Shown here piece by piece: positions 7,124-15,512 of a stretch of 15,512 nt of DNA. The stretch lies in IMG/VR virus record IMGVR_UViG_2617270964_000015; one strand, given 5' to 3'. This DNA is from a virus. Its lineage: Duplodnaviria; Heunggongvirae; Uroviricota; Caudoviricetes. Every line of letters starts with the position of its first letter. The first letter of the stretch is position 1. A program made the translations under genes and the position numbers. The notes beneath the pieces were generated by a model that was given only the letters and a program-made list of their open reading frames with translations, was not told the DNA's origin and ran no database searches.

Positions 7124-7147
7124 GGAAAAATCCCGGCCTCCGTCACT
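7124..7147 (-). terminator. Rho-independent terminator of the ProQ-like/PerC-like operon
   Basis: Minus-strand reading: stop TGA of the PerC-like gene, then gccggga-tttt-tcccggc (perfect 7-bp GC-rich stem, 4-nt loop; plus coordinates 7130-7147), then tttttt (plus-strand a-run 7124-7129). Confidence 0.65.
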
Positions 7148-7430
7148 GACTGCAATTTTTCGATCCAGGGTATTTCCTGAATGCCTTACCATTGGGCTGA
7201 TGTAATCCCATCCCGGCATGTGCCCGGCTGATGGTTTCGCGCATCTCCCCGAAATTATCCTGCCTTGCTGGTGGGCGTGCTGCCTTGTGGATACATTCCG
7301 CACGACGCTTTGCCGCCTGTTCCCGTGCCTTGTCATCATTCGCCAGCATGATGACCTCAGCCCACCGCGCCGCCGCTCTCCGGTACAGGCCACGCGCTTC
7401 CAGTGCTTCCGCTTTGCTGTCGTGAATCAT
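7143..7430 (-). CDS. PerC-family-like small transcriptional regulator (95 aa)
   Basis: N-terminus MIHDSKAEALEARGLYRRAAARWAEVIM matches my recollection of the PerC-family N-terminal signature (AE-LE--G-YRRAA-RW-EV). ATG at 7430-7428 overlaps the upstream stop (ATGA, 7427-7430). Confidence 0.5.
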   Translation of the reverse strand: MIHDSKAEALEARGLYRRAAARWAEVIMLANDDKAREQAAKRRAECIHKAARPPARQDNFGEMRETISRAHAGMGLHQPNGKAFRKYPGSKNCSQ

Positions 7431-7969
7431 GCGCCTGTTTTCTCCCTGGCTGCCCGGCGCTGGCGTTTGCGCTTCTCATTCAGCGCCACCAGCCGCGTTT
7501 CTGCCTCCTGCTGTTCCTGTGGTGTCACTTCCCCACATGGCTGGCCTTTCAGGTCGTAGCGTCCCCCACCAGCCATTAAGGCGCGGTAATAGCGCGGACA
7601 CTGCGCATAAGATGCCAGCGTCGCACGTAATGCCCCTGGCCCGAATGCCAGCCCCCTGACGGCGAGATCCTGCATCAGGTCGTCGAATATCCCCACCTTA
7701 AGCGGCTTCGGTGCTTCCCGGCTGAATAATTCAGGCCACAGTTCGATAAGGCGGTTAACGCGTCTGCGGTTTTTGCGCTGGCGTTTGGTCATATGCCGCC
7801 ACGGTGTCGCCCCTGTGGGCTTCTGCTGCGCTTTCTGGTTATCGGGCATCACTTTATGCGCCGATGTGGTTTTATCCTGCTCCTGTGCCGCCTGCGTCGT
7901 TTTCTGCGGCGTGCCGTAAATGCCTTTAGGTTTTCTGTTAATGGTCAGCTTTGTCATGCTTTGCCCCAT
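7427..7969 (-). CDS. ProQ/FinO-family RNA-binding protein
   Basis: PLKVGIFDDLMQDLAVRGL...YRALMAGGGRYDLKGQPCGEVTPQEQQEAETRL parallels the ProQ N-terminal FinO-like domain as I recall it (PLKIGIF-DL, RYL, R-DL-G-PCGE) and is followed by a basic tail. ATG at 7969 or at 7957-7955; the latter has GGGG 6 nt upstream. Confidence 0.7.
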   Translation of the reverse strand: MGQSMTKLTINRKPKGIYGTPQKTTQAAQEQDKTTSAHKVMPDNQKAQQKPTGATPWRHMTKRQRKNRRRVNRLIELWPELFSREAPKPLKVGIFDDLMQDLAVRGLAFGPGALRATLASYAQCPRYYRALMAGGGRYDLKGQPCGEVTPQEQQEAETRLVALNEKRKRQRRAAREKTGA

Positions 7970-8339: not shown

Positions 8340-10145
8340 TTATGTTCTGTCGTTAATCCCTGTTGCTGCTGGCAACCAGCCATCAGCATCATCATCTAAC
8401 AGAACATTTGTTATCACTCGCCCTTTATCCGGGCCTTTAGTGCATTTAGCCCGCTTATACTCCTTTCCGTATTCCGCCATAGCACCCGGCATATCAGTGC
8501 CAAAGCGTTTCAGTGATACTGGTTTTCCCAGACCATGCGCTGACATATAGGCTAAATAAGCATGATACAGATATCGCCTCGGGCTAAATGGCACTATTCC
8601 CGCATTACCCACCATCATTCCTTCACATTTAACCAACGACATCAGATATCCGCAAAAGTCCACCAGTGAATCACCCTCACGTTTTATCACCAGAGCCTCT
8701 TCTGATTTCTGCTGCTCATATAACAGACGTCTGGCTTCATCCTGGTCAGAAAAACGAGTAAGCAGGTGGCGAATCACTACCGCCAGTTCGCCTTCTATTT
8801 TTTCCACCAGCATGGGATCGCGTTCGTTCTCCGGTACGACCTCAGAGAAATTAAATATCACCCTACGACGCGAGATCCCCCCGCTTCGGTCACTGAATGA
8901 CATGGCGTTATTGTTTACTGCCAGCACTACCGCCGGAATACGAGTGGAGTATGGGGCTTTATGTTTCGGGTCGATCGCCACCTTGTCACCACCAGTAATT
9001 GCCTTAATTCCTGCACCATCACCAGCGTAGCGGGTCATATCCGGCATGATAATCAGCGAAAAGCCAACGACTAACGCGCGTTCCCTTGCGTCTTCCAGCG
9101 CCTTCATGCTTGCCGATACTGTATTGGCCTTACCCGCCAGCATGGTACAAATCTCCGCCATCACACTTTTACCGCTTCCGCCCGGCCCCGTTACCTCAAG
9201 GAATAACTGCCAGTCGTACCGGTTCGCCAGTACCATGAATAATGCCGCCAGTACGCGATCTGCTTTACGATCGTTATTTGCCACCGAACGACGCAGCCAC
9301 TTCCAGAAATTCGGCGCATGTGTTGCCAGTGTTTCCCCCTCTGCTGGTGGGCTGAACGGTAATTCACTGGCATTTAACAACCAGTCATTTTTGTTATGCT
9401 CCCGAAAATTTCCTGTCCGGGTATCAAATACCCCGTTACTGAATCCAATAAGATTCCTGTCTGCCCCGCCCATAACAGGCAGGCTCAATTTCATTGTGTC
9501 TACGGCAAATTTAATGGCGTTTTGCGAATAACTGATTCCAGCATCAATAAAAATCTTCGCCATAGACCGCTGGAGTTCCTTATCAGATACAGGCTCCCAG
9601 ACAATTCCGTTGTAATGGTGAACTACATCAGAATCGTCATTTATAGCCAGTGCCCTTCCATAATATTCAAGCAATACTTCCCCTCTCTGGCTGGCTCCCA
9701 TCTGATTTAGTGCTGGCCTGGGTAGGTCACTATTTTTTGTGACTAATTTCATCGCTGAAACTTCCCCGCGCTCTGCCTGTTCGCGGATCCGTTGCAGGTA
9801 ATCGCGCCAGTTCTCCGGCTCCCGGTCGGTGATGCCTTTGTATAATTTCGCCTCCTGTACGCCAGCCAGTGCCAGTTTTTCAGCGATAGCATTGATCTGG
9901 ATTGGTTCGATCTCCCCCGCGAGATAGACACGCGCAAAGCGGCGTTCATCGTCGACAATGCGGATATTCGCCAGGTCTGCCAGTTGCTTTGGCCCCAAGT
10001 AAACAGGTGGTACGTTATCGCCGTGCTTCCGTCCTTCGCTTTCAATCCAGTGTTGAGCATGGGAGTAAGCATCCGTCCCGGCAAAAATGATTACCTCAGT
10101 GAATTTATCCTTCGGCTGATATTTCAAATTCGGTGCGTTTTTCAC
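8340..10145 (-). CDS. P4-family phage/plasmid primase-like replication protein with P-loop NTPase module
   Basis: 601-aa ORF with Walker A GPGGSGKS. Overall resemblance to satellite/PICI primase-replication proteins is from memory only. Start is GTG at 10145-10143 with GGAGG just upstream, overlapping the upstream gene's stop (GTGA). Stop TAA at 8342-8340. Confidence 0.8.
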   Translation of the reverse strand: MKNAPNLKYQPKDKFTEVIIFAGTDAYSHAQHWIESEGRKHGDNVPPVYLGPKQLADLANIRIVDDERRFARVYLAGEIEPIQINAIAEKLALAGVQEAKLYKGITDREPENWRDYLQRIREQAERGEVSAMKLVTKNSDLPRPALNQMGASQRGEVLLEYYGRALAINDDSDVVHHYNGIVWEPVSDKELQRSMAKIFIDAGISYSQNAIKFAVDTMKLSLPVMGGADRNLIGFSNGVFDTRTGNFREHNKNDWLLNASELPFSPPAEGETLATHAPNFWKWLRRSVANNDRKADRVLAALFMVLANRYDWQLFLEVTGPGGSGKSVMAEICTMLAGKANTVSASMKALEDARERALVVGFSLIIMPDMTRYAGDGAGIKAITGGDKVAIDPKHKAPYSTRIPAVVLAVNNNAMSFSDRSGGISRRRVIFNFSEVVPENERDPMLVEKIEGELAVVIRHLLTRFSDQDEARRLLYEQQKSEEALVIKREGDSLVDFCGYLMSLVKCEGMMVGNAGIVPFSPRRYLYHAYLAYMSAHGLGKPVSLKRFGTDMPGAMAEYGKEYKRAKCTKGPDKGRVITNVLLDDDADGWLPAATGINDRT

Positions 10146-10638: not shown

Positions 10639-11000
10639 GATTCCCCCCCCCCCTGAATAACCTGATAACCGCAACTGGTCAGCAATTCGATAAATTCCGG
10701 CAATGTGCCGAAACAGCAATCATCACGCAGACGTTCGCGGGATACCTCAACGTCGTTTTCATAATGGCTCACCATGCGTCCGGTAAAATGCAAATCATCA
10801 TCGTGATGGCACGTTGACGGTTTAATCAGTCGCGCACGCTCTGCCAGTTCCAGCAATGCTTCAACACTTCCGGCAATTGCACCATCCGGCAGGTGGTAAT
10901 TACGCACTATGCGCCCGTTCTCCACATGGACCAGTAGCTGCCCGGTAAATTTCTCGTCAAACTGAATGCGGTTAAGGTCGGTAAGTGACAGGTTAATCAT
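10614..11000 (-). CDS. Hypothetical protein with two internal repeats (128 aa as read), ending just after a G11 tract
   Basis: ATG at 11000-10998 overlaps the upstream stop (ATGATTAA). Repeats DEKFTGQLLVHVENGRIV and DLHFTGRMVSHYENDVEV. C-terminus ...VIQGGGESWIISKQQ is encoded across the homopolymer. Confidence 0.5.
   Translation of the reverse strand: MINLSLTDLNRIQFDEKFTGQLLVHVENGRIVRNYHLPDGAIAGSVEALLELAERARLIKPSTCHHDDDLHFTGRMVSHYENDVEVSRERLRDDCCFGTLPEFIELLTSCGYQVIQGGGESWIISKQQ
10643..10653. repeat. Homopolymeric tract C11 (G11 on the coding minus strand) inside a coding region
   Basis: ttcccccccccccctg; eleven consecutive C at 10643-10653. Confidence 0.9.
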
Positions 11001-11358
11001 GGCGCACCTCCTGGCGAATACGGGCGGCGAATACCATCACGCAGCCATCAGGAGATTGCTGGCGTGCTTCCTGTTCGCTGGTGGCCTCGATGTGAATCAC
11101 GCGCGGTTGTGCCGTACTCAGGGCGATAAAACGCCAGATAGAATTGTTTTCGCATTTCTGAATAAACAGCGTGTTTTCTTCGCGCCCTTTCCATGTTGCC
11201 GAGATATAGCCCATGTCATTGAGCATCTCGCAGGCATCCACCAGCGTATCAGCGGCTACGTGTACAGTGTTTTTACCGTCAGCTATGCAATCACGGTGCA
11301 CCGCCAGGAAGGTGTATATAAATTTAGGGTGAGTTTGGGTATGCTGTGTTCCAGCCAT
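10993..11358 (-). CDS. Hypothetical protein (121 aa), first gene of the primase operon
   Basis: ATG at 11358-11356 with GAGG upstream on the coding strand. This is the 3' third of the 382-aa ORF-track entry 10993..12141, whose upstream part crosses the divergent regulatory region and a plus-strand gene. Stop overlaps the next start. Confidence 0.5.
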   Translation of the reverse strand: MAGTQHTQTHPKFIYTFLAVHRDCIADGKNTVHVAADTLVDACEMLNDMGYISATWKGREENTLFIQKCENNSIWRFIALSTAQPRVIHIEATSEQEARQQSPDGCVMVFAARIRQEVRHD

Positions 11359-11557
11359 AATCGTTACCTCGTTTAACGGTTTGGTTAGAAGCCCCGTTAC
11401 TGCTCCAACAGTGCGGGGCTTCGTTGTTTCAATTGCTGAATTGCATGTATCAGCCCTTGTGGTATTCAGATTACATTTTGGTGAATACCATTTCAAGTCT
11501 TTTTTGGTATTCACTTTTGTATTACACTGCATCCCGTTATTAATCGGAGGTGCAAAC
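11359..11557. promoter_or_regulatory. Divergent intergenic control region with hairpin and GGTATTCA operator-like repeats
   Basis: Stem-loop gaagccccg-(17 nt)-cggggcttc at about 11390-11425. Three copies of GGTATTCA / TGAATACC at about 11460-11516, one inverted. GGAGG at 11546-11550 precedes the ATG at 11558. Confidence 0.45.
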
Positions 11558-11863
11558 ATGTCCACGAGTTCTGTTAACAATAAGTCACAGCAACTGAATG
11601 CCAGATTTCCACATGAAGTAGTGAGTGGCATTGAGGCATCCCTACAGCCAGGGGAAACTAAAGCGAATTTTATAGTTACGGCTGTACGCGGTGAGATCGC
11701 CCGCCGCCAGGCAGAAGGAAGCGGAGAAAACCCCCTAGTTTCTTCGCTCGATGCGCTGGCGCAGGTGGAAAAAATCGGTGTCAAAGCTGCCGAGGAGATC
11801 GGGCAACTCGTCACCGTCGCGCGTGAAGAACTCCAGCGGCGCAAGGCCAAAGAACAGGAGTAG
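11558..11863 (+). CDS. Ribbon-helix-helix (Arc/MetJ-type) DNA-binding regulator, 101 aa
   Basis: ATG at 11558 seven nt after GGAGG; the ORF-track start at 11381 is unlikely because it crosses the control region. QQLNARFPHEVVSGIEA then ANFIVTAVRGEIARRQ fits the beta-strand-helix-helix pattern of Arc-like repressors. It is the only confident plus-strand gene inside the element. Confidence 0.55.
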   Translation: MSTSSVNNKSQQLNARFPHEVVSGIEASLQPGETKANFIVTAVRGEIARRQAEGSGENPLVSSLDALAQVEKIGVKAAEEIGQLVTVAREELQRRKAKEQE

Positions 11864-12087
11864 TTGATCAGCACCGGGCAACCAGAAAAAATCGTATCAG
11901 TTGCGCCACCAGCAAATTTTTTTGCTTTCCGGACGACGTTGCCAACGGCATTTTGCAGCAAAATATTCCGCATTTCTGGCGTACTGTAGTAACGGTGATC
12001 AGCGCCTTCACTCTGTGCGACCACAACGCTATAATCTGCCTCGTAGACAGTAAGCAATATAGCGCAGTAGAATATTCGTTCACAAAG

Positions 12088-12119
12088 GCGCTCCGGCAAC
12101 GGGGCGCTTTCTCTTTTTG
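12088..12119 (+). terminator. Intrinsic terminator-like hairpin, plus strand
   Basis: gcgctcc-ggcaac-ggggcgc (7-bp stem with one G-U pair, 12088-12107) followed by tttctctttttg (12108-12119). It lies about 225 nt past the stop of the plus-strand regulator gene and about 27 nt past the stop of the convergent minus-strand gene. Confidence 0.5.
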
Positions 12120-12133
12120 TAACGGTCAGAGCG

Positions 12134-12982
12134 TTACACATGGCTGTTTTCCTCCATGCGACGGGCTAACCAACGCTGCGAAAGACGAATTAATTCAGCT
12201 TTCCGCTGGTGGTAGTCCTGGCCTAACTCAATCAGCGTGATATTGCTCTGCTCAAGGTAAGAAAGGTGCTCAAGCTGCAACGTGCTCATGTGGTCGCGTG
12301 GTTCGCCTGTAATGCCGTTCGCCTGCGCCCACTGTTTTGCAGTCATGCCACCCAGCACGATACGCGCCAGCATATTGGCTTCCGTGGTGTAGTGGTGCTG
12401 GAGTGTGTTTTTACCCAGCTCAGCCCGGTATGCTTCCAGCGCGGCGCACATCGGCTTAAAGTAGCTGGCAACGGTGATACGGGCTTTCAGTTCCCGGCGT
12501 AACGCTGCGGAACGCACTGGCGCTACCTTGTGTAGCTCCTCCTCGCATTTGATGAAGTACTGACGAACGGCACGGCCCTGTTCGGTGCGTTCGACCATCG
12601 CCAGTTCTTTTGCCATGTTCGTGGAGATCAAATAGTCTTCACTGCGACGATCACCGCCGCGCTTTGTTGTCCAATCAGAATCAAACTGTTCAATATTTAC
12701 ACTTTGGTTCCCCCGTTTCGGGGAATCAAAGTACAAATTTTCTACAACTTTAAAATCCACGCCATTTTTAAATCCGTACTCATCAATACGTCCTTTAATC
12801 CAGGTAGTGAAATCACGGCCTCCCCCGAGCGCCTTATGCAACGCTCTGGCGCTAACAATATTGGTTTCACGCCCGCCAATAACGCCGGAAATAACCGGGA
12901 TAATTTCGCCGAAATTTTGCAGATTCTGGTTTTCAGGCCGAACTAAGCCCTGCCCCTGTACGGGCGTTTTTCGCTGTTTCAT
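12134..12982 (-). CDS. AntA/AntB-family phage antirepressor-like protein
   Basis: ATG at 12982-12980 with AGGAG 5 nt upstream. N-terminal region ARALHKALGGGRDFTTWIKGRIDEYGFKNGVDFKV ... MAKELAMVERTEQGRAVRQYFIKCEE matches the AntA-domain pattern I recall (DF-TWIK-RI--YGF, AKELAMVER--G---RQYFI-CE). Confidence 0.65.
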   Translation of the reverse strand: MKQRKTPVQGQGLVRPENQNLQNFGEIIPVISGVIGGRETNIVSARALHKALGGGRDFTTWIKGRIDEYGFKNGVDFKVVENLYFDSPKRGNQSVNIEQFDSDWTTKRGGDRRSEDYLISTNMAKELAMVERTEQGRAVRQYFIKCEEELHKVAPVRSAALRRELKARITVASYFKPMCAALEAYRAELGKNTLQHHYTTEANMLARIVLGGMTAKQWAQANGITGEPRDHMSTLQLEHLSYLEQSNITLIELGQDYHQRKAELIRLSQRWLARRMEENSHV

Positions 12983-13059
12983 AAAAACTCCTGCTAACGA
13001 ATTAAGTTACTTTTATTTGCTGGTGGATAGCTGGGGCTTCTGGCCCCGTAGCCATTTAA

Positions 13060-13260
13060 TCAGGTAGCTGTTCCGCGTGATTCCGCAATACGCTGATTAA
13101 TCCACTCGTCAATTTCACTCTCAACGAAAGCAATAGCTCGCGAGCCAATTTTTACAGGTTTAGGAAAACTCCCTTGGGCAATGAGTTTATAGATCCATGC
13201 CCTTCCATAGCCTGTACGGCGCATGGTTTCTGACATACGAATTAAATTTTGCTTATCCAT
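13060..13260 (-). CDS. alpA: AlpA-family transcriptional regulator / excisionase-like HTH protein
   Basis: MDKQNLIRMSETMRRTGYGRAWIYKLIAQGSFPKPVKIGSRAIAFVESEIDEWINQR matches the AlpA family (small HTH protein ending -EIDEWI-QR). ATG at 13260-13258 has AGGAG 6 nt upstream; the ORF-track start at 13305 is less likely. It lies downstream of int on the same strand, as in P4-like and PICI elements. Confidence 0.75.
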   Translation of the reverse strand: MDKQNLIRMSETMRRTGYGRAWIYKLIAQGSFPKPVKIGSRAIAFVESEIDEWINQRIAESRGTAT

Positions 13261-13317
13261 ACACTTCTCCTGATGCATATAAAAGTCTGTTTCTGGAATA
13301 TACACAAGAGAAGGATG

Positions 13318-13380: not shown

Positions 13381-14267
13381 CTGTACTCCTCTGGGATAAC
13401 CAAGCGGAAATCATCTTTTGTTTCCACTCCTGTTTTGCCAATTCCTTCTGAACAAAGAATATTTCTAATTGTACCTACTTTAGGCGTATTAACAGCATCA
13501 ATAGAATAAAGCAAGGAGTGTATTTTATTGATAATTAATGTCGTATGGCTCCACGGATAAGAAATACGAGTAGCTTTCGCTACATCAACAATAACATTTC
13601 GATAGATATTTCTAGGCTTACCCACCATTTTGTTAATTGTTTCGCAACTACGTGAATTCACCCCATCCATTTTACTTTTAATAAAATCGGGATACTTTTC
13701 CATAGATGATTTGACTTGGTTTAATCTCCAATTTATTGTCACCCCACCATTTTTAAGCAAAAATAATTCACTTTTAGTTATAACTAAATCGCTTGTTTTA
13801 ATATTTATACCGCCATTAATTAAAATTACTCGTGGGTTATAATCCTCCAAGTTATAGTGCGTAAAAGATGGAAGCCTCACTGGATATAGCCTATCAACAA
13901 CAAATTCTTTTACGTTATCAAAATCAGCATCCATCTTAAAAAGATTGGATATTCGGACAGAAAAAAGACCACAGGCCTTAATGACTTTTCTATGTTTTAA
14001 CTTTCCATTAGATTCGCAACTAATAACTTCACTTATTTTTGCATAGTTAGAGCGATGTCTGAATTTTTTACTTCTTGTATTAGAAAATATTTCTTTATTA
14101 AATTTACCACGAACAGAGACCCTTCCTTCTTCAATAAGCTCTGACAAATCTATATTTATTGCTACATCAACCATTCCGATTGATATATAGTGAAATAAAT
14201 CATAAACATCTCTATTTATCTCAAAAGCTGCTTTATTCAGAGTGTAAAACAATCTTTCAGGAAGCAT
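13359..14267 (-). CDS. Hypothetical AT-rich cargo protein (302 aa) between int and alpA
   Basis: ATG at 14267-14265 with AGGTGA upstream, only about 30 bp after the integrase stop. Uninterrupted 302-codon ORF in clearly AT-rich DNA (by eye about one-third G+C, against about half in flanking int and alpA). Asn/Ile/Lys-rich; no catalytic motif I can name. Confidence 0.6.
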   Translation of the reverse strand: MLPERLFYTLNKAAFEINRDVYDLFHYISIGMVDVAINIDLSELIEEGRVSVRGKFNKEIFSNTRSKKFRHRSNYAKISEVISCESNGKLKHRKVIKACGLFSVRISNLFKMDADFDNVKEFVVDRLYPVRLPSFTHYNLEDYNPRVILINGGINIKTSDLVITKSELFLLKNGGVTINWRLNQVKSSMEKYPDFIKSKMDGVNSRSCETINKMVGKPRNIYRNVIVDVAKATRISYPWSHTTLIINKIHSLLYSIDAVNTPKVGTIRNILCSEGIGKTGVETKDDFRLVIPEEYRKLFKLN

Positions 14268-14297: not shown

Positions 14298-15512
14298 TCA
14301 ATCTAATTTTTCAGATTTTATGTAAACAACGTTTCCGCCATGCTCAAGCGAATCCATATAGTCGGCGTACCACTGGAGCATTTCCCGGCGACCATCCAGA
14401 TATTGCGCATGGTTGTATGTGCCACGAATTGAGTTTTTATCGGCGTGCGCAAGCTGTGTCTCTATCCACGCGGTGTTATAGCCCTGCTCATGCAAAATGG
14501 TGCTCATGGTGTGCCGGAATCCATGACCAGTAACGCGCCCGGCGTAGCCAATACGACGAATGAGCACATTCATTGCCATTTCACTCATTGGCTTACTGTG
14601 GTGAATACGACCGGGGAAAATAAACTGATACTGGCCTGTCATGTTTTTTAACTGCTCCAGTATTTTTATCGCCTGTTCTGGTAATGGCACACAATGCGGA
14701 CGGCGCATCTTCATTCGTTCTTTAGGCACTTCCCACAAACGATTATCAAAATCGATCTCCCGCCATTCTGCCTGCCGTAATTCCCCGGGTCTGACACCTG
14801 TCAGAATTAATAGCCGCATTGCCAGTTTGACGATCTGGCTTCCGGTGTACGTATTAAAAACGCGGAAAAATTCCGGCAGTTCGTCGGCCTTCAGATAGGC
14901 GTAATGCTCTTTTTTATGTGGAGCAAATGCGCTCACCAGGTCAGGGGCTGGATTATATTCGGCGCGTCCGGTGATGATTGCGTACCGGAACACCTCGCCA
15001 CATCGCTGGCGAACCTTACGCAATTTTTCAGTCGCACCACGGTCATTAAGACGGGAAAGAACCGCCAGCAATTCCATCGGCTTAATTTCTGCGATCGGCC
15101 TACCGCCAATGTACGGAAAAACATCTTTTTCAAACGTCTCGATCATTTCCTCGGCGTATGACGATGACCACCTGTCGATCCGCTTTTCGTACCATTCGCG
15201 AGCGATACCCTCAAAAGTATTGCCAAATTTGCTCGCCTGTTCTCGCTTTTGGGCTTTTCTGGCCTCACTTGGATTTATACCACCAGCAAGAAGCCTTTTA
15301 GCCTCATCCCTTGCCGCCCTGGCATCAGACAGAGACACATCAGGGTACACACCCAACGACAACATTTTGGGCTTTCCTGCAAACCTGTAGCGCAGTCGCC
15401 ACCCTTTCGAACCGTTCGGCTCAATGAGCAACGAAAGCCCGTTACCGTCATTGAGTGTATAAGCCTTTTCTTTCGGCTTCGCGCGCCTGATGGCAAGGTC
15501 TGAAAGCAGCAT
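14298..15512 (-). CDS. int: Tyrosine recombinase, P4-type phage integrase
   Basis: ATG occupies the last three bases of the window (15512-15510). N-terminus MLLSDLAIRRAKPKEKAYTLNDGNGLSLLIEPNGSKGWRLRYRF is the P4-integrase arm-binding signature. C-terminal catalytic region GHGFRHTMSTIL ... LAHADKNSIRGTYNHAQY carries the R/HxxR/Y residues. Upstream promoter and att site are outside the window. Confidence 0.85.
   Translation of the reverse strand: MLLSDLAIRRAKPKEKAYTLNDGNGLSLLIEPNGSKGWRLRYRFAGKPKMLSLGVYPDVSLSDARAARDEAKRLLAGGINPSEARKAQKREQASKFGNTFEGIAREWYEKRIDRWSSSYAEEMIETFEKDVFPYIGGRPIAEIKPMELLAVLSRLNDRGATEKLRKVRQRCGEVFRYAIITGRAEYNPAPDLVSAFAPHKKEHYAYLKADELPEFFRVFNTYTGSQIVKLAMRLLILTGVRPGELRQAEWREIDFDNRLWEVPKERMKMRRPHCVPLPEQAIKILEQLKNMTGQYQFIFPGRIHHSKPMSEMAMNVLIRRIGYAGRVTGHGFRHTMSTILHEQGYNTAWIETQLAHADKNSIRGTYNHAQYLDGRREMLQWYADYMDSLEHGGNVVYIKSEKLD

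What the first reader, a model, noticed from the sequence alone, without database searches (positions are those of the whole stretch)
11864..12133. About 225 nt of untranslated sequence between the RHH gene and a plus-strand terminator: possible small RNA or long 3' UTR
The regulator gene stops at 11863 but the first convincing plus-strand terminator is at 12088-12119. The interval has no credible ORF (the track ORFs there are short, lack ribosome-binding sites, or run through the terminator) and holds several short gcaa/ttgc inverted repeats. The terminator also sits just after the stop of the convergent AntA-like gene, so convergent transcripts could interact.
Basis: inference. Interest (0 to 1): 0.4.

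Follow-up and report, generated by a model that had tools for sequence, protein, structure and literature searches.

The report
Candidate antisense small RNA in PICI
The "empty" stretch after the regulator gene of this E. coli phage satellite ends in a conserved mini-gene (promoter plus terminator) for a roughly 76-base RNA, which lies antisense to the start of a long read-through frame leading into the satellite's replication genes, so it is a plausible but unproven control element rather than plain spacer.

Summary
The YlcI/YnfO-type regulator gene stops at 11863. A strong plus-strand intrinsic terminator lies at 12085-12119. No plus-strand protein is encoded between them.

The interval has two parts.
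- **11864-12006** is a variable, unstructured spacer that holds one Chi site. In this allele it would be the ylcI 3' UTR.
- **12007-12119** looks like a self-contained unit: TTCACT-17-TATAAT, about 76 transcribed bases, then the terminator. Its 57-nt core recurs in about 400 of 5426 E. coli genomes and 102 IMG/VR contigs, always between ylcI and alpA/ant/BRO genes of EcCICFT073-type PICIs.

Other alleles give ylcI its own upstream terminator, followed by an invariant TGATATAAT. Hairpin variants keep pairing only on the plus strand, with four compensatory positions.

On the minus strand the whole interval lies inside a 382-codon stop-free frame. That frame starts at the antA stop and ends in an Icd/Kil-like domain, like P4 eta/kil. 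It shows no amino-acid constraint.

No Rfam family matches. Expression and function are untested.

Best reading: a cis-antisense sRNA in a P4-like immunity scaffold, a new variant of a known kind.

The parts
11558..11863 (+). ylcI/ynfO-family gene (101 aa), the 'RHH gene' of the finding. It is the only plus-strand gene of the element and is embedded antisense in the long minus-strand frame.
   Evidence: NCBIfam NF041551, E 1.3e-16. PHROG 6522, E 1e-46. Homologues of 59 or 101 aa align with conservative changes.
11864..12006 (+). Spacer. In this allele it is the presumed ylcI 3' UTR. It is variable between copies and has no significant structure.
   Evidence: z-score +0.67 against shuffles. Absent from CFT073-type alleles. 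The junction with different ylcI alleles falls exactly at 11864.
11906..11913 (-). Chi site (GCTGGTGG on the minus strand), one of 13 in the window.
   Evidence: 13 matches against 0.35 expected. The motif TTGCCCACCAGC recurs at the same place in other alleles.
12007..12035 (+). Sigma-70 promoter-like site: TTCACT, 17 nt, TATAAT.
   Evidence: 10 of 12 matches. The equivalent position reads TGATATAAT, invariant in 42 unique CFT073-type sequences, and TTCACA-17-TAAAAT in the L001 type. Promoter score is 11.1, against 6.5 for shuffles.
12043..12119 (+). Predicted ~76-nt small RNA. Its parts are a variable 5' part (12043-12061), a conserved single-stranded core (12062-12084, GCGCAGTAGAATATTCGTTCACA) and the terminator.
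   Evidence: The start is inferred from the -10 position. The 57-nt core 12062-12118 is found alone in many PICIs. Model R1 finds the unit in 39 of 80 ylcI loci, always on the plus strand. No Rfam match.
12085..12119 (+). Intrinsic terminator: 11-pair stem, GNRA loop (GCAA), U-rich tail.
   Evidence: 99.8% of cells are paired in 38 variants. Over 17 distinct hairpins of two classes, 98.4% pair on the plus strand against 74.9% on the minus strand, with 4 positions showing two-sided compensatory changes.
12118..12138 (-). Small 7-bp hairpin (TGTAACG..CGTTACA) covering codons 2-8 of the long frame, directly after its ATG.
   Evidence: -6.1 kcal/mol, not significant on its own.
10993..12141 (-). 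Eta-like long frame (382 codons). Its ATG overlaps the antA stop (cATGTGTAA). It runs antisense through the sRNA unit and ylcI and ends in an Icd/Kil-like domain. A nested short icd-like gene starts at 11358.
   Evidence: - 0 stops, against 20 and 23 in the other minus frames.
- Open for 301-819 codons in 84 unique alleles.
- NF033153 matches only residues 335-377.
- pN/pS is about 1 outside overlapped genes.
- AlphaFold pLDDT is 22-28 for residues 1-260.
- P4 eta shows the same domain at its C-terminus.
12134..12982 (-). antA/antB-type antirepressor gene, convergent with the sRNA unit.
   Evidence: Pfam PF08346, E 1.9e-22. PHROG anti-repressor Ant.
11460..11514 (.). Three copies of TGGTATTCA(C) arranged as inverted repeats between ylcI and icd. 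Operator-like (inference).
7427..7969 (-). ProQ/FinO-family RNA chaperone gene of the same element, a possible partner of the sRNA.
   Evidence: Pfam PF04352, E 3.2e-23. It co-occurs with the sRNA unit: 12/35 against 1/26 loci, Fisher p 0.004, uncorrected for relatedness.

Best explanation
The window is an E. coli phage-inducible chromosomal island (PICI) of the EcCICFT073 type. The interval has two parts.

**First part (11864-12006).** This is dispensable spacer. In this allele it is simply carried on the ylcI mRNA as a 3' UTR.

**Last part (12007-12119).** This is a small self-contained transcription unit: a sigma-70 promoter, about 76 transcribed bases, and a strong intrinsic terminator. 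It would make a small RNA, and the same terminator also ends the ylcI mRNA.

**What the RNA would pair with.** It is perfectly antisense to the first ~30 codons of a long minus-strand frame. That frame:
- starts at the stop codon of the upstream alpA-operon gene (here antA);
- is kept free of stop codons without any amino-acid constraint;
- ends in an Icd/Kil-like domain.
This is the architecture of phage P4 eta/kil, where translation of eta lets late transcripts escape Rho-dependent termination.

**Proposed mechanism (inferred, not shown).** In the quiescent island the antisense RNA pairs with leaky alpA/antA read-through transcripts. This blocks or uncouples translation of the eta-like frame, or triggers RNase III cleavage, so transcription does not reach icd, the primase gene and the rest. 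The ProQ/FinO-family protein of the element may assist. Strong AlpA-driven transcription after helper-phage induction would overcome this.

**Shown by sequence:** terminator, promoter-like site, conservation, strand specificity, the open frame.
**Inferred:** that the RNA is made and what it does.
For: **Context.** int, alpA, antA, ylcI, icd-like, DUF4222 and a D5-type primase are present.

**Terminator.** Found at 12085-12119.
- Across 38 variants 99.8% of cells are paired.
- Across 17 distinct hairpins of two sequence classes, four stem positions change on both sides and stay paired.
- G.U pairs make it a plus-strand structure: 98.4% paired against 74.9% on the minus strand.
- Loops are GCAA, GUAA or GGAA.

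**Promoter.**
- This allele has TTCACT-17-TATAAT.
- TGATATAAT is invariant in 42 unique CFT073-type sequences while its flanks vary.
- The L001 type has TTCACA-17-TAAAAT.
- Scores are far above shuffles.

**Independence of the unit.** In most alleles a separate terminator (GGCCACC..GGUGGCC plus U-run) ends the ylcI operon about 35 nt before the -10.

**Distribution.** The core is in about 400 of 5426 E. coli genomes and 102 IMG/VR contigs. The covariance model R1 finds it in 39 of 80 ylcI loci, always in the same place and on the same strand.

**Open frame.**
- Searches show it open across alleles.
- No amino-acid constraint.
- No confident fold.
- The ATG overlaps the antA stop, or lies 4-19 nt after the alpA stop in ant-less alleles, where the sRNA tail reaches the start codon.

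**P4 parallel.** P4 eta carries the same NF033153 domain at its C-terminus. Its regulatory logic is summarised in PMC10111431.

**ProQ/FinO.** The gene is present and associated with the unit.
Against: - There are no expression data of any kind, and no paper mentions this sequence.
- Covariation supports only the terminator, which would also be conserved if it served the ylcI mRNA alone.
- In this very allele no terminator separates ylcI from the unit, so the unit is not needed to explain the hairpin.
- In the window the RNA would pair from about +21 of the eta-like frame, outside the usual window for blocking initiation.
- About half of related PICIs lack the unit. In those the ylcI terminator itself abuts the eta-like start.
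- Diversity is low and confined to Escherichia. The conserved core also acts as a recombination joint between modules (L092), which by itself could keep it uniform.
- The ProQ association is not corrected for relatedness, and most unit-bearing islands lack ProQ.
Confidence: 0.5

Rival explanations
1. It is only the 3' UTR and terminator of the ylcI mRNA. The promoter-like hexamers are not used, no separate small RNA is made, and the hairpin merely stops plus-strand transcription from running antisense into antA, alpA and int.
For: - In the window no terminator lies between 11864 and 12084, so ylcI transcripts must end at 12119.
- All structural covariation is in the terminator.
- Alleles without the unit simply place the ylcI terminator against alpA.
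Against: - Most alleles already have a good terminator upstream, which would make the second one redundant.
- The 9-nt TGATATAAT, including positions that would be synonymous in the minus frame, is invariant in 42 unique sequences while its neighbours vary.
- Three to four unrelated upstream alleles each keep a good promoter 44-50 nt before the hairpin.
- The 25 nt before the hairpin are conserved as well.
Confidence: 0.28
2. The small RNA is real but acts in trans. With Hfq or the island's ProQ/FinO protein it would target host or helper-phage mRNAs or sRNAs, like the prophage anti-sRNAs AgvB and AsxR, which also have conserved 3' and variable 5' parts.
For: - The unit has a variable 5' part, a conserved core and a terminator with a U tail.
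- The element encodes a ProQ/FinO protein.
- Precedent for prophage sRNAs with this layout is in PMC4104026.
Against: - No complementarity above the shuffled background was found elsewhere in the window.
- There is no match in phage genomes and no Rfam match to known prophage sRNAs.
- Host targets could not be searched here.
Confidence: 0.12
3. The interval is ordinary coding sequence of a functional ~380-aa minus-strand protein (a long 'Icd-like' or 'Ash family' protein), and the plus-strand features are incidental.
For: - The frame is open in nearly all alleles.
- Gene callers predict it, with 723 database proteins.
- Its ATG overlaps the antA stop.
Against: - pN/pS is about 1 in the unit and 0.8-1.9 between ylcI and the Icd domain, against 0.13-0.2 in the Icd domain.
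- The long-frame omega of 0.63 is no different from the other five frames.
- Lengths range from 301 to 819 codons, with cassettes swapped in and out.
- AlphaFold pLDDT is 22-28 over residues 1-260.
- The hairpin is selected on the plus strand.
Confidence: 0.05
4. A small plus-strand protein is encoded in the interval (for example the 41-, 50- or 95-codon TTG ORFs).
For: One plus-strand frame has no stop in the 270 nt.
Against: - There is no ATG start or ribosome-binding site.
- The 95-codon ORF runs through the terminator.
- There are no family hits.
- It is never annotated.
- There is no codon periodicity.
- The frame is not kept in other alleles.
Confidence: 0.02

Closest known systems
Phage P4 immunity region (vis/alpA, then eta with nested kil, CI RNA, seqA/seqC, Rho-dependent timm)
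   Same: - A long frame starts at the end of the alpA-type gene and ends in the same Icd/Kil-like domain (NF033153: window E 3.8e-21, P4 eta E 1.4e-20).
- Regulatory RNA elements sit inside that frame.
- The N-terminal part is not a conserved protein.
- The logic that translation of the long frame allows read-through comes from PMC10111431, which cites Forti et al. 1999.
   Different: - P4's CI RNA and its targets are on the sense strand and belong to Rfam C4, isrK and c4-a1b1. These were found in P4 but not in the window at E up to 1.
- Here the RNA unit is on the opposite strand with its own promoter and terminator.
- A protein regulator gene (ylcI) is also embedded antisense.
- The Kil and Icd parts do not align by BLASTP.
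Phage lambda OOP RNA
   Same: A short (77 nt) antisense RNA with its own promoter and a strong terminator, convergent with and complementary to a regulatory mRNA of the same element (own knowledge).
   Different: OOP overlaps the 3' end of cII. This unit overlaps the 5' part of the long frame. There is no sequence relation.
Phage P22 immI (arc, mnt, ant, sar RNA) and P1/P7 immI (c4, icd, ant)
   Same: The same cast appears: a ribbon-helix-helix-type small regulator, an antirepressor, an Icd-like division inhibitor and a small antisense RNA. In P1 a block of icd translation leads to Rho termination before ant (own knowledge).
   Different: - Gene order differs.
- sar covers the ant ribosome-binding site, whereas here the RNA lies downstream of antA.
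- There is no C4 family match.
- YlcI is not Arc or Mnt by any test run here.
FinP/FinO of F-like plasmids and other FinO-domain protein/antisense RNA pairs
   Same: A mobile element encodes both a FinO/ProQ-domain protein and a short cis-antisense RNA ending in a terminator hairpin. The two co-occur.
   Different: Binding has not been tested. Most islands with the unit have no ProQ gene.
Prophage anti-sRNAs AgvB and AsxR
   Same: Short RNAs with a conserved 3' part and a variable 5' part, encoded convergently at module borders of mobile elements (PMC4104026).
   Different: They sit in lambdoid prophages at the PR' moron site. There is no Rfam or sequence match here. Esr41 was also excluded by sequence.

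Membership tests
Rho-independent (intrinsic) terminator | G+C-rich stem-loop followed directly by a U-run on the transcribed strand | tested here: met
   11-pair stem 12085-12110, GCAA loop, TTTCTCTTTTT tail. Pairing is kept on the plus strand only.
Independent sRNA gene | Own promoter upstream of the terminator | tested here: inconclusive
   There are consensus matches in every allele type and an invariant TGATATAAT. Promoter activity was not measured.
Independent sRNA gene | A discrete transcript of the predicted size | not testable with these tools
   No transcript data are available. No paper mentions the sequence.
Rfam C4 / isrK / c4-a1b1 (P1, P7 and P4 immunity RNAs and their targets) | Match to the covariance models | tested here: not met
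   No hit at E up to 1 anywhere in the window. The positive control, P4, gave C4 at 74.9 bits, isrK at 60.8 bits and c4-a1b1 at 44.1 bits.
P4 eta/kil-type nested frame | The long frame begins at or overlaps the stop of the upstream alpA-operon gene | tested here: met
   The ATG at 12141-12139 overlaps the antA TAA at 12136-12134. In ant-less alleles the ATG lies 4-19 nt after the alpA stop.
P4 eta/kil-type nested frame | C-terminal Icd/Kil-like domain with an internal start for the short form | tested here: met
   NF033153 matches residues 335-377. The same model matches P4 eta residues 161-208. An internal ATG at 11358 has a GAGG 8 nt upstream.
P4 eta/kil-type nested frame | Translation of the long frame suppresses Rho-dependent termination | not testable with these tools
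   The evidence is indirect only: the frame is kept open without amino-acid constraint.
Protein-coding gene in the interval (either strand) | Purifying selection on the amino-acid sequence, or a family match | tested here: not met
   Omega is 0.5-1.0 in all six frames. There is no periodicity, no Pfam, NCBIfam or PHROG hit, and pLDDT is below 30.
FinO/ProQ-dependent antisense RNA | Cognate FinO-domain protein in the same element | tested here: met
   PF04352, E 3.2e-23, at 7427-7969. Co-occurrence p 0.004.
FinO/ProQ-dependent antisense RNA | Physical binding of the RNA by the protein | not testable with these tools
   Requires CLIP, RIL-seq or a gel-shift assay.

The most novel reading that the evidence does not exclude
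Gram-negative PICIs of the EcCICFT073 type are held quiescent by an undescribed immunity cassette nested antisense inside a P4-eta-like read-through frame. The cassette consists of a YlcI-type repressor plus a ~76-nt cis-antisense RNA, helped in some islands by their own FinO/ProQ chaperone. The RNA would uncouple translation of the frame, so that Rho stops leaky alpA-operon transcripts before the replication genes. The variable 5' alleles of the RNA would set island-specific immunity.
Probability: 0.2. Interest if true: 0.7.

Novelty: new variant of a known kind. Interest (0 to 1): 0.45.

Why it matters
How Gram-negative PICIs stay silent is an open question. [quoted passage not shown]

This locus offers concrete candidates in the right place:
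- a divergently transcribed small DNA-binding protein;
- a conserved antisense RNA unit;
- a long frame that is kept open but not conserved, pointing to control by translation-coupled read-through as in P4.

The model island EcCICFT073 itself carries the unit (NZ_CP051263.1 1388253-1388309). The idea can therefore be tested directly with existing strains and reporters.

If the RNA is not made, the region is just a 3' UTR with a shared terminator, and the finding is ordinary.

Tried and rejected
- **Rfam scan of the whole window at E up to 1.** Nothing in or near the interval. The only hits were far-below-threshold HOLDH, mir-9261, RsaJ and H19 matches elsewhere.
- **Esr41, an EHEC island sRNA of similar size.** The sequence from the supplement of PMC5286369 is unrelated.
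- **Pas sRNAs.** Their paper does not mention PICIs, satellites, AlpA, YlcI or antirepressors.
- **Literature search for the hairpin sequence.** No paper.
- **A conserved 5' stem-loop in the RNA.** It is predicted for CFT073 alone, is not kept in other alleles by eye, and is absent from the consensus fold.
- **Trans targets inside the island.** The best duplexes (-31 to -33.5 kcal/mol) equal the shuffled background of -25 to -31.
- **Phage database.** No match to the unit. The Icd part hits only one satellite-like record.
- **Species-wide scan.** Only Escherichia ruysiae, plus about 20 chance hits, so no deep covariation is available.
- **A minus-strand promoter in the conserved core (TTGTGA-18-TATATT).** Its -10 is not kept in other alleles.
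- **A C-rich Rho-loading region in the minus-strand RNA of the interval.** No clear skew.
- **The 8-nt complement between 12001-12008 and the 5' arm of the terminator.** This could be an anti-terminator in the long ylcI transcript. It is not above chance and was not pursued.
- **The primary P4 paper (PMC94026).** It is not held, so the P4 logic rests on the summary in PMC10111431 and on my own knowledge.

Full report
**1. Context**

The window is a phage satellite of E. coli of the EcCICFT073 (PICI) type. On the minus strand it carries:
- an integrase (15512..14298);
- an unknown gene;
- alpA (13305..13060);
- an antA/antB antirepressor (12982..12134);
- an icd-like gene;
- a DUF4222 gene;
- a D5-type primase (10145..8340);
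- further on, ProQ/FinO and PerC genes.

Related E. coli genomes show the same order.

**2. The observation**

- The gene ends at 11863.
- The single plus-strand terminator-like site before antA is the 11-pair stem 12085-12110 with a GCAA loop and a U-rich tail to 12119.
- The antA stop is at 12134-12136.
- Nothing in Rfam matches the interval, even at E up to 1.
- No plus-strand protein is credible. The interval is never annotated in 170 full-length copies and has no family hits. Substitutions fall equally on the three phases (21/24/26). Plus-strand open frames are not kept in other alleles.
- The short gcaa/ttgc repeats mean nothing. The first 177 nt fold no better than shuffles.

**3. The interval is a mosaic of two parts**

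Megablast shows that 11864-12300 travels with the antA module. It joins different ylcI alleles exactly at 11864.

A 57-nt core (12062-12118) occurs on its own in many islands that lack antA, including EcCICFT073 itself. In every case it lies at the point where the plus-strand ylcI unit meets the minus-strand alpA, ant or BRO gene.

The part 11864-12006 is absent from those alleles. It is variable and has no structure. It holds one of 13 Chi sites in the window.

**4. The last ~110 nt look like a small gene**

*Promoter.* In the window, TTCACT-17-TATAAT (12007-12035) precedes the hairpin by 50 nt. In CFT073-type alleles three things stand out:
- The ylcI operon has its own terminator (GGCCACC..GGUGGCC plus a U-run).
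- About 35 nt later comes TGATATAAT. It is invariant in 42 unique sequences while its flanks vary.
- Then follow about 47 nt and the hairpin.

A third allele has TTCACA-17-TAAAAT, and a fourth has TTGCCC-17-TATCAT (read by eye). Promoter scores of 49 unique upstream regions average 11.1, against 6.5 for shuffles.

*Layout of the predicted RNA.* It is about 73-85 nt long. It has a variable 5' part, a conserved single-stranded core (GCGCAG.AGG..A.T.GTTCA.AAA) and the terminator.

*Structure.* The only consensus structure is the terminator. Its pairing is very well kept: 99.8% of cells in 38 variants.

A covariance model built from these variants finds the unit in 39 of 80 ylcI-bearing viral contigs, always on the ylcI strand. 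That search revealed a second hairpin class (GGCGGCUCC-AUUUC-GGGGCCGC). Over 17 distinct hairpins:
- four of eleven stem positions change on both sides and stay paired;
- several G.U pairs make the structure valid only on the plus strand (98.4% against 74.9% paired);
- loops in the first class are always GNRA.

The hairpin is therefore a plus-strand RNA structure under selection. The promoter is well supported by sequence, but it is unproven.

**5. The opposite strand**

*The frame is open.* One minus-strand frame is free of stops from 12141 to 10993 (382 codons). The other two frames carry 20 and 23 stops. The same holds in 84 unique alleles, whose open frames range from 301 to 819 codons despite large cassette differences.

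*Where it starts and ends.*
- In the window its ATG overlaps the antA stop (cATGTGTAA).
- In ant-less alleles the ATG lies a few bases after the alpA stop. There the U-tail of the sRNA terminator reaches the start codon.
- In CFT073 a remnant of the ant N-terminus is fused in frame.
- Only the last 48 residues match a family, the Icd-like domain NF033153.

*It does not look like a functional protein outside the Icd domain.*

| Measure | Region | Value |
|---|---|---|
| pN/pS | Icd domain | 0.13-0.2 |
| pN/pS | where ylcI or a 66-aa plus-strand gene overlaps (third codon positions coincide) | 0.2-0.5 |
| pN/pS | sRNA unit | about 1.1-1.3 |
| pN/pS | between ylcI and the Icd domain | 0.8-1.9 |
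| omega | long frame within the interval | 0.63 |
| omega | other five frames within the interval | 0.54-1.0 |
| AlphaFold pLDDT | residues 1-260 | 22-28 |
| AlphaFold pLDDT | Icd part | 50-59 |

The frame is kept open, but its sequence is free to change.

*P4 precedent.* Phage P4 is the known case. Its eta frame starts at the end of the alpA homologue. It ends in the same NF033153 domain, where Kil is the short nested form. It contains the immunity RNA. Its translation lets late transcripts read through (PMC10111431). P4's CI RNA and seqA are found by Rfam inside eta. The window has neither.

**6. Mechanism proposed**

The plus-strand RNA is perfectly complementary to the first ~30 codons of the eta-like frame. 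It could be the small unit, the ylcI 3' UTR that shares its end, or both.

I propose that it limits translation of that frame on leaky alpA-operon transcripts. Transcription would then stop before icd and the replication genes. Strong AlpA-driven expression after helper induction would overcome this.

The island's ProQ/FinO-family protein is a natural candidate partner. Among non-redundant loci, 12 of 35 with the unit have the gene, against 1 of 26 without it (Fisher p 0.004). This test is not corrected for relatedness.

All of this is inference. Points against it:
- The window's pairing starts at about +21, outside the usual initiation window.
- Half of related islands lack the unit.
- The conserved core is also a recombination joint (L092).

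**7. Rivals**

- A plain 3' UTR and terminator remains a serious alternative (about 0.28).
- A trans-acting sRNA is possible and not exclusive with the main reading.
- A functional long minus-strand protein and a small plus-strand protein are both unlikely. The evidence is in sections 2 and 5.

**8. Known relatives and novelty**

The scaffold is P4-like. The cast (small DNA-binding regulator, antirepressor, Icd-like inhibitor, antisense RNA) recalls P22 immI and P1 immI. The unit's size and layout recall lambda OOP and FinP.

No family membership could be shown for the RNA. The sequence is confined to Escherichia. I found no description of it in the literature searched.

I rate it a new variant of a known kind. 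Interest is moderate because expression is untested, but the model island EcCICFT073 carries the unit, so it is directly testable.

Noticed in passing
whole window; e.g. 11906-11913 (-), 11238-11245 (-), 12205-12212 (+), 13019-13026 (+): There are thirteen Chi sites (GCTGGTGG) in 15.5 kb, on both strands, against 0.35 expected from composition. From my own knowledge of the E. coli chromosomal Chi density, that would predict about 3. This suggests protection of the island's linear or rolling-circle DNA from RecBCD.
   Followed up: partly
window 7427-7969 (-) and 7143-7430 (-): The island encodes a ProQ/FinO-family RNA chaperone (PF04352, E 3e-23) and a PerC-type regulator. The ProQ gene is found almost only in islands that also have the sRNA unit.
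   Followed up: partly
window 11460-11514 and 11388-11422: Three copies of TGGTATTCA(C) sit as inverted repeats between ylcI and icd and look like operators. A 9-bp G+C-rich hairpin (GAAGCCCCG..CGGGGCTTC) lies in the icd leader.
   Followed up: no
window 10993-12141 (-); loci L001-L110: A minus-strand frame is kept stop-free for 300-800 codons in 84 unique alleles without amino-acid constraint. It overlaps ylcI antisense with coinciding third codon positions. Databases name its products 'Icd-like' or 'Ash family' proteins of 270-450 aa.
   Followed up: yes
L002 3613-3813, L003 2611-2811, L007 1095-1322 (+): Many alleles carry a second small plus-strand gene (60-75 aa, 'hypothetical') right after ylcI. 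The low pN/pS of the overlapping minus frame there (0.2-0.3) suggests it is a real gene. It is absent from the window.
   Followed up: no
window 12012-12073 versus L001 4710-4770 and L005: The promoter and 5' part of the RNA form a hypervariable cassette flanked by near-identical sequence: about 45% different over 60 nt, with a 3-nt indel. At least four such alleles exist, which would fit allele-specific recognition.
   Followed up: partly
window 13383-13661 (-): There is a weak match to Rfam HOLDH RNA (28 bits against a gathering score of 319, E 0.001) inside the unknown 302-aa gene next to the integrase. It is most likely chance.
   Followed up: no
window 12001-12008 and 12085-12092: An 8-nt stretch (AGCGCCTT) upstream of the sRNA start is perfectly complementary to the 5' arm of the terminator. 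It could compete with the terminator only in the long ylcI transcript. It is not above chance.
   Followed up: no
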